Part shown: positions 38,831 to 44,519 of the stretch, one piece after another
Position numbering within the stretch: the stretch's first letter is position 1
How the letters are laid out: each line of letters starts with the position of its first letter
Assembly (NCBI RefSeq): GCF_009914755.1
Contig: NC_060934.1
DNA length: 64,000 bases
Direction: 5' to 3' (one strand)
Source of the DNA: the human T2T-CHM13v2.0 reference genome, Homo sapiens
Translations under genes and position numbers: made by a program
The notes under the pieces: model-generated
What the model was told of the DNA's origin: nothing
What the model saw: the letters and a program-made list of their open reading frames with translations, nothing else
Database searches by the model: none

Positions 38831-38847
38831 GCTTTATAACAAATCTT
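38831..38847 (+). repeat. Left target-site duplication of the HERV-H/SVA insertion (GCTTTATAACAAATC[TT])
   Basis: Identical to 42664-42680; last TT ambiguous with the poly(T). Confidence 0.95.
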
Positions 38848-40499
38848 TTTTTTTTTTTTAATTTATTATTTTATTGATAATTCTTGGGTGTTTCTCACAG
38901 AGGGGGATTTGGCAGGGTCATGGGACAATAGTGGAGGGAAGGTCAGCAGATAAACAAGTGAACAAAGGTCTCTGGTTTTCCTAGGCAGAGGACCCTGCGG
39001 CCTTCCGCAGTGTTTGTGTCCCTGATTACTTGAGATTAGGGATTGTTGATGACTCTTAACGAGCATGCTGCCTTCAAGCATCTGTTTAACAAAGCACATC
39101 TTGCACCGCCCTTAATCCATTTAACTCTGAGTGGACACAGCACATGTTTCAGAGAGAGGGTTGGGGGTAAGGTCACAGATCAACAGGATCCCAAGGCAGA
39201 GGAATTTTTCTTAGTGCAGAACAAAATGAAAAGTCTCCCATGTCTACTTCTTTCTACACAGACACGGCAACCATCCGATTTCTCAATCTTTTCCCCACCT
39301 TTCCCGCCTTTCTATTCCACAAAGCCGCCATTGTCATCCTGGCCCGTTCTCAATGAGCTGTTGGGCACACCTCCCAGACGGGATGGTGGCCGGGCAGAGG
39401 GGCTCCTCACTTCCCAGTAGGGGCGGCCGGGCAGAGGCGCCCCTCACCTCCCGGACGGGGCGGCTGGCCGGGCAGGGGGGCTGACCCCCCCACCTCCCTC
39501 CCGGACGGGGCGGCTGGCCGGGCGGGGGGCTGACCCCCCCACCTCCCTCCCGGACGGGGCGGCTGGCTGGGCAGAGGGGCTCCTCACTTCCCAGTAGGGG
39601 CGGCCGGGCAGAGGCGCCCCTCACCTCCCGGACGGGGCGGCTGGCCGGGCGGGGGGCTGACCCCCCCACCTCCCTCCCGGACGGCACGGCTGGCCGGGCG
39701 GGGGGGCTGACCCCCCACCTCCCTCCCGGATGGGGCGGCTGGCCGGGCGGGGGGCTGACCCCCCCCCCACCTCCCTCCCGGACGGGGTGGCTGCCCGGCG
39801 GAGATGCTCCTCACTTCCCAGATGGGGTGGCTGCTGGGCGGAGAGGCTCCTCACTTCTCAGACGGGGCAGCTGCCGGGCGGAGGGGCTCCTCACTTCTCA
39901 GACGGGGCAGCCGGGCAGAGACGCTCCTCACCTCCCAGACGGGGTCTCGGCCGGGCAGAGGCGCTCCTCACATCCCTGATGGGGCGGCGGGGCAGAGGCG
40001 CTCCCCACATCTCAGACGATGGGCGGCGGGGCAGAGACGCTCCTCACTTCCTAGATGTGATGGCGGCTGGGAAGAGGCGCTCCTCACTTCCTAGATGGGA
40101 TGGCGGCCGGGCGGAGACGCTCCTCACTTTCCAGACTGGGCAGCCAGGCAGAGGGGCTCCTCACATCCCAGACGATGGGCGGCCAGGCAGAGACACTCCT
40201 CACTTCCCAGACGGTGTGGCGGCCGGGCAGAGGCTGCAATCTCGGCACTTTGGGAGGCCAAGGCAGGCGGCTGGGAGGTGTAGGTTGTAGTGAGCCGAGA
40301 TCACGCCACTGCACTCCAGCCTGGGCACCATTGAGCACTGAGTGAACGAGACTCCGTCTGCAATCCCGGCACCTCGAGGTTGGCGGATCACTCGCGGTTA
40401 GGGGCTGGAGACCGGCCCGGCCAACACAGCGAAACCCCGTTTCCACCAAAACCAGTCAGGCGTGGCGGCGCGTGCCTGCAATCGCAGGCATTCGGCAGA
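38846..40499 (-). mobile_element. SVA retrotransposon (SVA_D-like) lacking the CCCTCT hexamer: Alu-like ~40499-40230, VNTR ~40230-39366, SINE-R ~39365-38861, poly(A)
   Basis: Typical SINE-R sequence, GC-rich VNTR units (ccggacggggcggctggccgggc), antisense Alu-like domain, AATAAA at 38875-38870 and T-tract 38846-38859. Confidence 0.95.
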
Positions 40500-40537
40500 C
40501 TGGCACCCTTTATCTATAAAACCGGGTCACTCTGCAG

Positions 40538-42555
40538 CTTCCACTCTGAGAGTTACTCAAAGCTCGGCGTCCGTGATGGCCTATGGGGCTTCCGAGGCGA
40601 TCGGGCAGCATCAGTCTTCAGCCGCTAAGCCGAGAAGGAGTCAGTCAGAGAGCCTTGGGCCAGAGTTGCAGGGGCTCGGGGAGTGGCTGCCAGGTGAGTT
40701 GAACAGTCTAATTTCCAGTAGGGTCCCGCACAGATGGGACACGGCTTAGGAGGAATCCTGGGCTGCAGGCATTCCTTGCCCTGGTGGTCAGATTTCTGGC
40801 ACTTGTAGCAAGCTCCTGGGGGAGGAGGTTCTAGAAGAACGCCTAGCCGCTGCGGTTCAGGCATTTGGAAGTTCTTGTATGCTGGAGATGTGGCTGGGGT
40901 TTGTCTCACAGTGGAGCCAAGGAATTGCAACTTTTTTCTATTATTGTACACCTTGAAGGCAAGGTTAATTAAATCCTGTTGTGGGGTTTGAGGGCCGGAA
41001 TTTAATTTTTGGAGTTTTATTTAATGTCGGGAGCAGATCGGGTAATAAAATGTATATTGAGAATAAGATGGCCTTTTGACCTTTTAGGGTCTAGGGCTGT
41101 AAAGCGTCTCAGGGTTGCTGCCGAACGAGCCATGAACTGGGCTGGGTTTTTATATTTGATGAAAAAGAGCCTAAACGCTATGTGATTTGGGATAAAGAAA
41201 AAGGAGCATTAACCCTGACTATGCCTTTGGCTCCAGCCACCTTTTTAAGAGTAAATTGCTGGGCAGGTGGGGGAGGGCTAGTCACAGAATGAAACTGTAA
41301 GTCGGACCAGGTGTGGGATGAAGGGGGGGGAGGCGCGGAGGCTGAGGAAGAATTGGGACCTAGCTTGGGCTGGCGCGGAGGGGAGAGGTCAGATGGGTCT
41401 GTAGAAGAGGAAGATTAGAAAGACTCAGCGCCGCTTGGGGTTGGGACTGAGGGGACAGGAGGGAGGGAAAGAAGGAAGATTTGGGACGAGTTGCACGGGG
41501 CACAGAGACTAGGAAGGGACTGATGTGTAAAAGAATGCCTGGACGTCAGGCACCTCAGACCATTTGCCCATTTTACGACAAGAATTATTTAGATCTTGTA
41601 GGATGGAAAAATTGAAAGCGCCGTTTTCCAGCTATTTGGAACTACTGTCGAGTTTGTATTGGGGTCAAGCGGCATTGCAGAAGAAAATAAGGCATTTAGG
41701 TTTTAGGTCAGGTGTGAGTTGAAGAGGTTTTAAGTTTTTGAGAACACAGGCTAAGGGAGAACAAGGAGGAATGGAAGGTGGAAGCCTACCCATAGTGAAG
41801 GAGGCAAGCCCAGAGAAAAGAGTAGAGACATGGAGAAGGGGTGGGGAGTTCTTGCCCTCCAGAAAAGCAGAGAAAGGGTTGGGGCACGGAAATAAGGGAT
41901 TGGGGCACAGAGATAAGAGGTTGGGGTGCGGAAATAAGCGATTGGGAGGTTCTTGCCCCTAGGAAAGCGGGACTTGCCTCTAAGGGTGAAGGAGAAGGGG
42001 TTGAGGGGTACTTGCCCCTGCCCCAGGAAAGGCAGAGAAGGGGTAGAGACAAGGAGAGAAGGGGTTGGGGTACTTGCCCCTTCCCCAGAAAAGCAGGACT
42101 TGCCGCTAAGGGTGAAGGACCAAGGCAGGTGTCCCTGCGTGGTCTGACACCCTTGAAACGTGGGTGTATAATCACAGAGGCGTCCCTGCAATGATTAAAC
42201 ACCAAGGGAAGGCTGCCTTCCCAGTCCGTGACCGGCGCCGGAGTTTTGGGTCCACGGATAAAACGTGTCTCTTTTGTCTCTACCAGAAAATGAAAGGAAT
42301 TGAAATTAAGAGAAGGGAGAGATTGAAGTGTAGCGCCAAGATTGAAAGGAGAAAGAGGTTGAGGGATAGTGAGGGAAGTTGGAGAAGAGAGTAAAAAGAG
42401 GCCGCTTACTGGATTTGAAATTGGTGAGATGTTTCTTGGGCTGGTCGGTCTGAGGACCTGAGGTCGTAGGTGGATCTTTCTCACAGAGCAAAGAGCAGGA
42501 GGACAGGGGATTGATCTCCCAAGGGAGGTCCCCCGATCCGAGTCACGACACCAAA
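40538..42555 (-). mobile_element. HERV-H internal 5' region (PBS, leader, pre-gag repeats, degenerate gag, start of pro), co-inserted with the SVA
   Basis: PBS TGGTGTCGTGACTCGGAT; gag zinc knuckles CYKCQKSDHQGKEC and CPICAGPYWKLDC in ORF 40625-40951; HERV-H-type leader repeats at 41840-42130. Confidence 0.93.
42536..42553 (-). other. Retroviral primer-binding site complementary to the tRNA-His 3' end
   Basis: TGGTGTCGTGACTCGGAT, 17/18 match to TGGTGCCGTGACTCGGAT, 2 nt after the LTR end. Confidence 0.9.
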
Positions 42556-42663
42556 TTTCATGTGCGTCCGTGTGAAGAGACCACCAAACAGGCTTTGTGT
42601 GAGCAACATGGCTGTTTATTTCACCTGGGTGCAGGTGGGCTGAGTCCAAACAGAGAGTCAGCC
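42556..42663 (-). mobile_element. LTR7 (HERV-H) R-U5 only; no U3
   Basis: GCTGACTCTCTGTTTGGACTCAGCCCACCTGCACCCAGGTGAAATAAACAGCCATGTTGCTCACACAAAGCCTGTTTGGTGGTCTCTTCACACGGACGCACATGAAA matches the LTR7 3' end. Confidence 0.92.
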
Positions 42664-42680
42664 GCTTTATAACAAATCTT
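42664..42680 (+). repeat. Right target-site duplication of the HERV-H/SVA insertion
   Basis: Identical to 38831-38847; followed by GAAA, giving TCTT/GA, an L1-endonuclease-like site. Confidence 0.95.
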
Positions 42681-42827
42681 GAAATCAAGTCATGATTTGT
42701 GTTTGTGACAGTGACAGGGTTAATGATGTTAGTAATCTGTAATGTGTATGTTCTTAGCACATCATGATAGAATTTGACTAGGCATGGTGTGGTTACTACA
42801 ACAGGATGAGAGCAATGATACCACTAG

Positions 42828-42877
42828 AGAGAAGTGATAGCATTAATTTCAGAGAAGTGATAGCATTAATTTCAGAG
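42828..42877. repeat. Perfect 23-bp tandem duplication
   Basis: (AGAGAAGTGATAGCATTAATTTC)x2 plus AGAG. Confidence 0.9.
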
Positions 42878-44519
42878 GAAAAAAAACACTTTAAAATTTC
42901 ACCAGTTTTTCTATTTGTAGGCATCGCAATAGGAAGGAATGTGAGGAAGAAAGCTGGTGCATTTGGGAGAACACTTGTGAAATGTAGCAGAAGGCCAGGC
43001 GTGGTGGCTCACGCCTGTAATCCCAGCACTTTGTGAGGCCGAGGTGGGTGGATCATTTGAGGTCAAGAGTTCGAGCCCAGCCTGGCCTATATGGCGAAAC
43101 CCCGTCTCTACTAAAAACACAAAAATTAGCCAGGCATGGTGGCGGGCGCCTGTAGTCCCAGCTGCTCAGGAGGCCGAGGCAGGAGAATTGCTTGAAACCG
43201 GGAGGCAGAGATTGCAGTGAGCCGAGATTGTGCTACTGCACTCCAGCCTGGGCAATAGAGCAAGACTGAGTCTCAAATTAAAAAAAAAAAAAAGTAGCAG
43301 AAGTGAGCTGTAGTGGAAACAAATACAAAGAAAGGGAACGAGAACTGAAACATGAAGAGCAAGAAACCTATGAACACAGAGGACTGATCTGGGAATGATA
43401 AGTTGAGCATTGTGGTTTGGAAGGAATATTGGAATTCATTTAACCCAATCTCCTTATTTTTTTGTATTGATGTGAAAACTGAGAGACAAGGAAGTTCCTT
43501 TAGAGCTTATCTATAATCTCCTTTAGAACGGAATCAATCGTGCAAATTTGGTTCTAGGCTGACAGTTGAAAGTCAAGACTTTGTAAGTAAAATCCTTCTG
43601 TTCTGTAGGTATATTATTGTAAATAAGAACTTCATTCTTAAAGAACAATTTCATACCTTACAAAATTGATTATGAAAATAAAACAAAACAGACGCATATG
43701 CGATTTTGAATATTAATTATGTAAGACTAAAAACAGTATAAAAAGTAGTATTTTAAACGCTCCTTTGGGGAATATTTTCTACATTGGCACAGATATAGTC
43801 CAGGGAATTTTAGAATGAAAATAACTTTTTTCCCTTTGTAAATATGTAAATTTCATTTTGTAAATATGTATATGCATATAGAGTAAGCATATGCATTTTT
43901 CATTGTGCTAAATGTTGAATTGCCTTCAAAGCTGGAGTCATCTATTCTGAAAAATCTTTGAACGGTAAATGATGGGAAGGAATAGATTCCTTTGTGAGGT
44001 CTTCAGTTTCAAAGATCCTTACAATGTATCAGCTGCTGAGTCAGCAGAATCAACATCATCCCAGACTAGCTGGTAAGTGTTGCTAATCTAGTTACCTGGT
44101 CTGTGGTAGTTACTAGGTGTTCATAAAAGAAAAAGACATGATCTTTATAATAGTGAAAGGCAAAAGTGGAAGAAGTCATAAATTGAATTATGGTGAATTG
44201 GATGAGTTTATATCATACTATTATTTGTTATGAAAAGGTTATTTATAGACCCTGACATTATATAGATTGGTTCAAACTTCTCCAAATAAGAGACGTCAGA
44301 CTATGATAGAGCAGCTGTTCCAGAATATCCATTAGGAGCAAAAGAGCGACAGGGTTGGGGACAGGCCTGCAGTCTAGCTGCTGGGAAAGGGTCTGACTGA
44401 GGCTGTGGTTTTCAAACATTTTTGCTTTTTTGAAACATATACCTTCTCTCATATTTTTAAGTGATCTACAGTTTTTTTTTTAAATCATAACCCTAAACAG
44501 TTGCAAAGGATATAATTTC

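What the first reader, a model, noticed from the sequence alone, without database searches (positions are those of the whole stretch)
38831..42680. A single retroposed, spliced HERV-H / orphan exon / SVA chimera: an SVA apparently mobilised from a HERV-H LTR7 promoter
Seen: the TSD GCTTTATAACAAATC[TT] (38831-38847 = 42664-42680) brackets both the SVA and the adjacent HERV-H sequence. Removing the insert rebuilds a continuous old L1 (...gccatagctttataacaaatcttgaaatcaag...) with an L1-EN-like TCTT/GA nick site. On the minus strand the insert reads LTR7 R-U5 (42663-42556), PBS-His, leader/gag (to 40538), 38 nt of non-repeat sequence, SVA Alu-like/VNTR/SINE-R, AATAAA, poly(A). There is no U3, no CCCTCT hexamer, no pol/env and no 3' LTR. 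Established: SVAs can acquire upstream exons by splicing into their Alu-like domain (e.g. MAST2-SVA / SVA_F1), and LTR7 is a strong promoter in pluripotent and early embryonic cells. Inference: a HERV-H provirus elsewhere drove a transcript that spliced into a downstream SVA and was copied here by L1 machinery, so an LTR retrovirus promoter powered a non-LTR element. A repeat annotation would show this as two unrelated neighbours. It may belong to an already catalogued 5'-transducing SVA group; I cannot check that.
Basis: partly seen in the sequence, partly recalled or inferred. Interest (0 to 1): 0.9.

Follow-up and report, generated by a model that had tools for sequence, protein, structure and literature searches.

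The report
Retrocopied HERV-H–exon–SVA spliced RNA
This is one L1-made DNA copy of a spliced RNA that started at the promoter of an old retrovirus (HERV-H) on chromosome 20, picked up a tiny 38-base exon and then an SVA element; it is a clear but single, dead-end example of a known way in which SVAs carry upstream exons along.

Summary
A 17-nt target-site duplication (38831-38847 = 42664-42680) brackets one 3,816-nt insert with a poly(A) tail. Read on the minus strand it holds an untemplated G, LTR7 R-U5, HERV-H leader/gag, a 38-nt piece, and an SVA without its hexamer.

The source of the 5' half is one provirus at G000:C20:19.80-19.81 Mb. It is 0.8% diverged from the insert; the next best HERV-H copy is 95% identical.
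- The insert starts 31 nt after that LTR's TATAAG.
- The HERV-H part ends exactly where genomic copies continue GTAAG (8 of 8 copies).
- The 38-nt piece occurs at only one other place in the genome. That place is 2.6 kb downstream of the donor and is flanked by a pyrimidine tract-CAG and GTAAGT.
- The SVA part starts right after the CCTCAG acceptor of its canonical relatives.

So this is an L1-mediated retrocopy of a capped, twice-spliced, LTR7-initiated RNA.

There are no sibling copies. No matching SVA lies in cis: the only SVA within 104 kb downstream belongs to another subfamily, and all 49 copies of the right sub-lineage lie elsewhere. The source SVA was probably an allele since lost or not sampled here.

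It is a new member of a known kind (exon-trapping SVA 5' transduction). Damert 2009 and Hancks 2009 could not be read and may already list it.

The parts
38831..38847 (.). Target-site duplication, left copy (15 nt certain; the last TT could equally belong to the poly(A))
   Evidence: Identical 17-mer at 42664-42680; the 15-mer occurs only twice in the window
38848..38859 (-). Poly(A) tail of the retrocopy (12 A, up to 14 with the ambiguous TT)
   Evidence: T run of 14 from 38846 on the + strand
38860..39372 (-). SVA SINE-R domain with two AATAAA signals just before the tail
   Evidence: 99% identical to many genomic SVAs. Against the majority of 22 relatives it has 3 substitutions and one 3-nt deletion, all private. 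AATAAA read by eye
39373..40224 (-). SVA VNTR (boundaries approximate)
   Evidence: Direct-repeat families with 37-49-nt spacing across 39332-40217. Best other genomic match is 96% over 891 of 921 nt
40225..40499 (-). 3' part of the SVA Alu-like domain; it begins exactly after the CCTCAG acceptor of canonical relatives
   Evidence: 11 of 11 aligned relatives are identical from TCTGCCGAATGCC on, except for 1 substitution and one 8-nt deletion in the insert. 5 of 5 printed relatives read ctcctgcctcag just upstream
40500..40537 (-). 38-nt exon copied from G000:C20:19803733-19803696
   Evidence: Only two places in the genome at up to 3 mismatches: here and C20 (1 mismatch). At C20 it is flanked by ...ctcttcctttttcag| and |gtaagtgc
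40538..42555 (-). HERV-H interior: primer-binding site, leader and decayed gag; it ends at the HERV-H splice donor
   Evidence: Collinear with C20:19808489-19806372, with 17 substitutions and one 7-nt indel over 2,118 aligned nt. 8 of 8 other HERV-H copies continue GTAAG after ...AGTGGA(A/G)(A/G). Weak Pfam hits to Gag_p30 (E 0.0028) and zf-CCHC (E 0.0013), both below the curated cut-off. That the PBS matches tRNA-His is recalled, not tested
42556..42662 (-). LTR7 R-U5 (107 nt), starting at the transcription start; no U3
   Evidence: The first templated base corresponds to C20:19808489, 31 nt after the first T of TATAAG in the 5' LTR of the C20 provirus
42663..42663 (-). One untemplated G at the 5' end (C on the + strand)
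   Evidence: The insert reads GGCTGAC where the C20 LTR reads TGCTGAC. Untemplated 5' G in full-length SVA/L1 insertions is ascribed to reverse transcription of the cap (PMC4859970, passage)
42664..42680 (.). Target-site duplication, right copy

Best explanation
The 3,816-nt insert is a single L1-mediated (target-primed) retrocopy of one capped, spliced, polyadenylated RNA.

Inferred course of events:
1. Transcription began at the start site of the 5' LTR7 of a 4.7-kb HERV-H provirus on chromosome 20 (G000:C20:19808813-19804083, minus strand). That LTR carries the AAAAGAAG insertion typical of the stem-cell-active LTR7up/7u1 type.
2. The RNA ran 2.1 kb through leader and gag. It was spliced from the strong HERV-H donor (AAG|GTAAGT), over the rest of the provirus and its 3' LTR, to a 38-nt exon 350 bp past the provirus.
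3. From that exon's GTAAGT donor it was spliced into the CCTCAG| acceptor near the start of the Alu-like domain of a sense-oriented SVA. It ended at the SVA's own AATAAA.
4. L1 ORF2p nicked the chr10 target at TCTT/GA, primed on the poly(A), and copied the RNA to its cap.

Shown: the exon boundaries, the source provirus, the source exon, the start site, the TSD and the tail.

Inferred:
- The SVA lay in cis, downstream in the chr20 transcription unit, on an allele that was later lost or is absent from this assembly.
- The event happened in a germ-line-contributing cell where LTR7 was active.
- The age is roughly 3-6 million years.

The new copy lacks U3 and the SVA hexamer, and it has left no descendants.
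For: - TSD, poly(A) and nick site.
- Source provirus: the HERV-H part matches C20:19808489-19806372 at 98.87% over 2,125 columns, with 17 substitutions (8 of them CpG transitions) and one 7-nt indel. Genome-wide this copy scores 3,727 bits at 99%, against 3,393 bits at 95% for the next best (40 of 2,659 candidates were scored).
- Donor: 8 of 8 other HERV-H loci continue GTAAG at the break (a ninth locus, L010, had no anchor match and was dropped).
- Exon: the 38-mer occurs once elsewhere, at C20:19803696-19803733, between a pyrimidine tract-CAG and GTAAGT.
- Acceptor: 11 of 11 and 5 of 5 canonical relatives have CCTCAG directly before the insert's first SVA base.
- Start site: TATAAG lies at -31 and there is one extra G. 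The cap explanation comes from a passage of PMC4859970.
- LTR type: both C20 LTRs read ccacAAAAGAAGtaaac. Carter et al. report this 8-bp insertion as unique to 7up/7u1 and needed for promoter activity in iPSCs (PMC8912925, section 11).
- Consistent ages: the SVA part has 4 private substitutions in 791 non-VNTR nt, against 0.8% pairwise divergence for the HERV-H part.
Against: - No source SVA was found in cis. BLAST of the insert against C20:19700001-19820000 found one SVA (19729752-19731700, same strand). It is only 258/293 (88%) identical in the Alu-like part and 506/533 (95%) in SINE-R, and it lacks the lineage's indel pattern.
- The 30-mer next to the acceptor has 49 places genome-wide at up to 1 mismatch. 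On C20 these are only at 5.07 and 36.87 Mb, both in the opposite orientation.
- The insert's 8-nt Alu-like deletion is unique in the genome.
- The closest whole SVAs (C11:95.33 Mb, C2:196.05 Mb) differ by 38 and 31 mismatches and about 190 nt of VNTR.
- No ape or other human genome could be examined, so the insertion date and the empty site are untested.
- No RNA data were available for the chr20 locus.
Confidence: 0.9

Rival explanations
1. Trans-splicing. The chr20 HERV-H/38-nt-exon RNA was joined by the spliceosome to an SVA transcript from another chromosome, for example one of the 48 other copies of this sub-lineage. The hybrid was then retrotransposed.
For: No SVA of the right sub-lineage lies in cis on C20 in this assembly. 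Both junctions are exact splice sites, which trans-splicing would also produce.
Against: No existing SVA is a convincing parent: the best differ by about 2% plus about 190 nt of VNTR. Trans-splicing between unrelated Pol II transcripts is rare in humans (established knowledge). [quoted passage not shown]
Confidence: 0.06
2. Template switching by L1 reverse transcriptase. The cDNA was begun on an SVA RNA and jumped to a separate HERV-H lncRNA, giving a bipartite chimera of the U6-L1 type.
For: A single TSD and a single poly(A) would also fit a template-switch chimera.
Against: The switch would have to leave the SVA exactly at an AG acceptor and land exactly on the last base of a 38-nt exon already spliced to HERV-H. 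There is no microhomology beyond the shared CAG. The SVA part does not run to an SVA 5' end.
Confidence: 0.03
3. Two unrelated neighbouring insertions (a HERV-H fragment and an SVA), or a DNA-level segmental copy from chr20.
For: A repeat annotation would show them as neighbours. The NCBI mask has separate blocks at 38836-40493 and from 40852 on (hub annotation).
Against: One TSD encloses both parts, and there is no TSD or A-tract at the inner junction. The 38-nt linker comes from the same chr20 locus as the HERV-H part. Compared with chr20, 2,638 nt of intron including the 3' LTR are missing exactly at GT...AG.
Confidence: 0.01

Closest known systems
SVA_F1 (MAST2 exon 1-SVA_F), human
   Same: An upstream first exon was spliced into the SVA Alu-like domain, replacing the hexamer. 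The product was retrotransposed by L1 with a single TSD (PMC4859970 and PMC12593883, passages).
   Different: SVA_F1 is an amplifying subfamily with its own promoter-bearing CpG exon; this element is a singleton. [quoted passage not shown] Here two splices were used (HERV-H donor, then a 38-nt exon), and the 5' exon is 2.1 kb of retroviral sequence.
pt_SVA_D6 (STK40 exon 1-SVA_D), chimpanzee, with further exon-bearing 5' transductions
   Same: SVAs acquired exons by splicing. Many members carry exons of other genes (PMC6139936, abstract and passage).
   Different: That is a family of 94 members in another species. The donors are protein-coding genes, not an endogenous retrovirus.
HERVH-LTR7-driven chimeric lncRNAs (e.g. 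ESRG, linc-ROR)
   Same: The LTR7 start site and the strong HERV-H splice donor join HERV-H sequence to downstream exons on the same strand (PMC12228294, section 16).
   Different: Those are transcripts at their own loci. Here such a transcript was fixed as DNA elsewhere, with an SVA as its last exon.
Orphan SVA transductions whose source element is missing from the reference
   Same: The source locus is identified from the transduced sequence, but no SVA is present there (PMC12593883, passage).
   Different: That case is a 3' transduction (CKS1BP); this one is a spliced 5' acquisition.

Membership tests
L1-mediated (TPRT) retrocopy | Target-site duplication flanking the whole insert | tested here: met
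   17/17 nt identical; the 15-mer occurs only twice in 64 kb
L1-mediated (TPRT) retrocopy | 3' poly(A) directly abutting the TSD, preceded by AATAAA | tested here: met
   12-14 A; two AATAAA within 25 nt
L1-mediated (TPRT) retrocopy | T-rich/purine nick site resembling TTTT/AA | tested here: met
   TCTT/GA read from the rebuilt empty site. The consensus itself is recalled
L1-mediated (TPRT) retrocopy | Introns of the source locus are absent | tested here: met
   C20:19806371-19803734 is missing exactly between GT and AG. The sequence after the exon's GTAAGT is also missing
SVA (canonical) | 5' (CCCTCT)n hexamer | tested here: not met
   Absent. The SVA part starts about 85 nt into the Alu-like domain of its relatives
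SVA (canonical) | Alu-like, VNTR and SINE-R domains, AATAAA and poly(A) | tested here: met
Spliced (exon-trapping) SVA 5' transduction | The upstream part ends at a genomic 5' splice site and the SVA part begins at an AG acceptor | tested here: met
   HERV-H AAG|GTAAGT (8 of 8 copies). Exon CAG|GTAAGT. SVA CCTCAG| (11 of 11; 5 of 5)
Spliced (exon-trapping) SVA 5' transduction | Source locus holds the exon(s) and an SVA in cis, in the same orientation | tested here: inconclusive
   Provirus and exon found. The only cis SVA within 104 kb belongs to another subfamily. None of the 49 sub-lineage copies lies nearby. Other haplotypes could not be examined
5'-transducing SVA group / subfamily (as SVA_F1) | Several copies share the junction but have different TSDs | tested here: not met
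   The 38-mer occurs only here and at the source. The donor-to-acceptor pattern has 1 place. Only the self-match covers the junction among 40 scored hits
HERV-H provirus | Two LTRs with U3, pol/env interior and a short (4-6 bp) integration TSD | tested here: not met
   The insert has R-U5 only and ends in gag. The C20 source does have both LTRs and a GTGTG duplication (by eye)
LTR7up/7u1 (source LTR) | 8-bp AAAAGAAG insertion (SOX2/3 motif) in block 2b | tested here: met
   The octamer is present in both C20 LTRs. The criterion is from PMC8912925, section 11. No subfamily consensus was at hand, so the rest of the LTR was not classified

The most novel reading that the evidence does not exclude
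The chimera is a natural 'promoter tag'. It records that a heritable L1-mediated SVA mobilisation took place in a cell where a SOX2/3-dependent LTR7up promoter was firing (pluripotent epiblast-like cells). If so, HERVH lncRNA loci could serve as launch pads for SVAs that land in their introns. Because no cis SVA exists in this assembly, the join may even have been made in trans between a HERVH lncRNA and an SVA RNA from another chromosome.
Probability: 0.1. Interest if true: 0.6.

Novelty: new member of a known kind. Interest (0 to 1): 0.4.

Why it matters
- It ties three mobile-element systems together in one event: an LTR-retrovirus promoter and splice donor, an SVA, and the L1 machinery. 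Every junction is resolved to the base.
- It gives a concrete source locus (C20:19.80 Mb) at which to test whether HERVH lncRNAs exonise SVAs in pluripotent cells.
- It shows that some 'HERVH-int/LTR7' annotations are L1-made processed copies rather than retroviral integrations. This matters for counts and dating of HERV-H.
- It is one more case in which the source element of a transduction is missing from a complete assembly.
- It does not change how SVA mobilisation is understood.

Tried and rejected
- The chr20 SVA at 19729752-19731700 as source: rejected. It is 88% (Alu-like) and 95% (SINE-R) identical, has a different indel pattern, and has its own TSD GAATCCTAAAAGAGT.
- Finding a parent by VNTR similarity: the best matches are 96% and on other chromosomes. 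Whole-SVA alignments gave no clear parent.
- Finding a parent by private variants: the 8-nt deletion and the SINE-R variants are unique to the insert.
- Showing that the flanks are one continuous L1: the right flank has no other genomic match. Local paralogues align only with the left flank. A Pfam scan of the left flank failed on stop codons and was not pursued.
- Literature: full-text searches returned no paper whose title or abstract describes a HERV-H-SVA retrocopy or this locus. Term look-ups inside PMC6139936, PMC8219666, PMC10681720 and PMC12593883 found no mention either. Damert et al. 2009 and Hancks et al. 2009, the two catalogues of SVA 5' transductions, are not held, so prior listing cannot be excluded.
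- The SVA subfamily letter (A-F) was not determined, because no consensus library was at hand.
Full report
**1. The observation**

The 17-mer GCTTTATAACAAATCTT stands at 38831-38847 and again at 42664-42680. Its first 15 nt occur nowhere else in the 64-kb window on either strand, and the bases outside the repeat differ. Next to the left copy lies a run of 14 T, which is a poly(A) of 12-14 on the minus strand, preceded by two AATAAA. On the + strand the rebuilt empty site reads ...AAATCTT/GAAATC. This is a T-rich/purine nick of the kind L1 endonuclease makes (read by eye; the consensus is recalled).

No word of 8 nt or more from either flank recurs at the inner HERV-H/SVA junction, and there is no A-tract there.

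**2. Anatomy on the minus strand**

Coordinates follow:
- 42663: one extra G
- 42662-42556: 107 nt of LTR7 R-U5
- 42555-40538: HERV-H interior
- 40537-40500: a 38-nt piece
- 40499-40225: Alu-like domain
- about 40224-39373: VNTR, with direct repeats at 37-49-nt spacing
- 39372-38860: SINE-R
- then the tail

The HERV-H interior holds decayed gag. One open stretch hits Gag_p30 (E 0.0028) and another hits the zinc knuckle (E 0.0013). Both are below Pfam's cut-off, so this is weak support. There is no U3, hexamer, pol/env or 3' LTR.

**3. Source of the 5' half**

A search of the window's own genome with the junction showed that HERV-H homology stops at window 40538 in every copy. In 8 of 8 other HERV-H loci that could be anchored, the genome continues GTAAG at exactly that point (a ninth locus, L010, had no anchor match). 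That is a consensus 5' splice site.

The best non-self match was on C20. The whole 2.1-kb HERV-H part matches C20:19808489-19806372 (minus strand) at 98.87%. The differences are 17 substitutions, 8 of them CpG transitions, and one 7-nt indel over 2,118 aligned nt. Genome-wide the next best copy is 95% identical, scoring 3,393 bits against 3,727 (40 of 2,659 candidates scored).

The C20 element is a 4.7-kb provirus:
- it has two LTRs that differ at 8 of 430 positions;
- it has a GTGTG duplication (by eye).

**4. The 'orphan' 38-mer**

A pattern search allowing 3 mismatches found it at just two places in 3.1 Gb: here, and at C20:19803696-19803733 with 1 mismatch. The C20 site is 2.6 kb downstream of the HERV-H donor and about 350 bp past the 3' LTR. 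There it is flanked by ...ctctcttctcttcctttttcag| and |gtaagtgc, so it is a true internal exon.

**5. The SVA junction**

The SVA part begins TCTGCCGAATGCC. In 11 of 11 aligned canonical relatives, and in 5 of 5 printed ones, this is preceded by ...ctgattctcctgcctcag. That is a pyrimidine tract plus AG, about 85 nt into the Alu-like domain. All three junctions are therefore exact exon boundaries, which only splicing explains simply.

**6. The 5' end**

The first templated base corresponds to C20:19808489, 31 nt after the first T of TATAAG in the 5' LTR. It is preceded by one G that the LTR does not encode. [quoted passage not shown] So the RNA was a full-length, LTR7-initiated transcript.

Both C20 LTRs contain ccacAAAAGAAGtaaac. 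Carter et al. report an 8-bp AAAAGAAG insertion as unique to LTR7up/7u1, coinciding with a SOX2/3 motif, and needed for promoter activity in iPSCs (PMC8912925, section 11). The source LTR thus looks like the stem-cell-active type. I could not classify the rest of the LTR.

**7. What was not found**

- Siblings: none. The 38-mer occurs at two places only. A pattern for the HERV-H donor motif within 60 nt of the SVA acceptor motif has one place. Only the self-match spans the exon/SVA junction among 40 scored hits.
- A cis source SVA: none in this assembly.
  - BLAST of the insert against C20:19700001-19820000 found a single SVA (19729752-19731700, same strand, full length, own TSD). It is 258/293 identical in the Alu-like part and 506/533 in SINE-R, and its indels differ.
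  - The insert's SINE-R is 99% identical to many SVAs elsewhere.
  - The 30-mer beside the acceptor has 49 places genome-wide at up to 1 mismatch, all of them listed. On C20 these are only at 5.07 and 36.87 Mb, both in the opposite orientation.
  - The insert's private changes are one substitution and an 8-nt deletion in the Alu-like part, and three substitutions and a 3-nt deletion in SINE-R. No other copy examined shares them.
  - The closest whole SVAs differ by 31-38 mismatches and about 190 nt of VNTR.

**8. Reading**

The best account is cis-splicing into an SVA that then sat downstream in the chr20 transcription unit and was later lost, or is simply not on this haplotype. A missing source element has precedent for SVA transductions (PMC12593883, passage). 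Trans-splicing and RT template switching remain possible but need more coincidences.

The age is inferred from two figures that agree with each other:
- 0.8% pairwise divergence for the HERV-H part;
- 4 private substitutions in 791 non-VNTR SVA nucleotides.

Against a human-chimpanzee divergence of about 1.2% (recalled), these suggest roughly 3-6 million years. This is untested, because no ape genome was at hand.

**9. Comparison with what is known**

[quoted passage not shown] It gave rise to SVA_F1 (MAST2) in humans and pt_SVA_D6 (STK40) in chimpanzee (PMC4859970 passages; PMC6139936 abstract and passage). HERVH is known for a strong donor that builds chimeric transcripts, and SVAs are known to be taken up through cryptic acceptors (PMC12228294, section 16).

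This element combines the two. It differs from SVA_F1 in four ways:
- it uses a more 5' acceptor;
- it has two splices;
- its 5' exon is retroviral;
- it has no offspring.

The lack of offspring is to be expected, since the copy has neither U3 nor the hexamer. A review passage states that the 5' end, meaning hexamer and Alu-like domain, is required for SVA mobility.

Seven full-text searches returned no paper whose title or abstract describes this chimera. The two 2009 catalogues of SVA 5' transductions could not be opened.

**10. Verdict**

This is a new member of a known kind, of moderate interest.

The weak points are:
- the missing source SVA;
- the untested orthologous sites;
- the flank's L1 identity, which rests on recall and on a short resemblance across the site.

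Noticed in passing
G000:C20:19729752-19731700 (loci L020/L021 tiles): A full-length canonical SVA on the minus strand with CCCTCT hexamers and a 15-nt TSD (GAATCCTAAAAGAGT). It lies about 72 kb downstream of the 38-nt exon, on the same strand as the HERV-H transcript. It belongs to a different subfamily from the insert's SVA, but it has an intact CCTCAG acceptor and could itself be exonised.
   Followed up: partly
G000:C20:19804083-19808813 (locus L015): The source HERV-H provirus is a 4.7-kb deleted form with a GTGTG duplication. Its LTRs differ at only 8 of 430 positions, and both carry the AAAAGAAG octamer. The retrocopy has a 7-nt stretch (GTCCTCA, about window 42451-42457) that the provirus lacks.
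   Followed up: partly
window 42828-42873: A perfect tandem duplication of a 23-mer (AGAGAAGTGATAGCATTAATTTC, two copies) in the unique right flank of the insertion (family D18).
   Followed up: no
window 42664-42985: The right flank of the insertion has no other match in the genome at the sensitivity of the DNA search, whereas the left flank is an old dispersed repeat. The repeat homology seems to fade within about 20 nt of the insertion site.
   Followed up: partly
genome-wide (one search list): The SVA sub-lineage defined by the 30-mer next to the acceptor (TCTGCCGAATGCC...GGCACGC type, lacking a 9-nt stretch in the Alu-like domain that the C20:19.73 Mb SVA carries) has only 49 copies in this assembly. 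The 11 copies aligned were selected as the closest matches to the insert, and they are almost identical to each other in the Alu-like domain.
   Followed up: no
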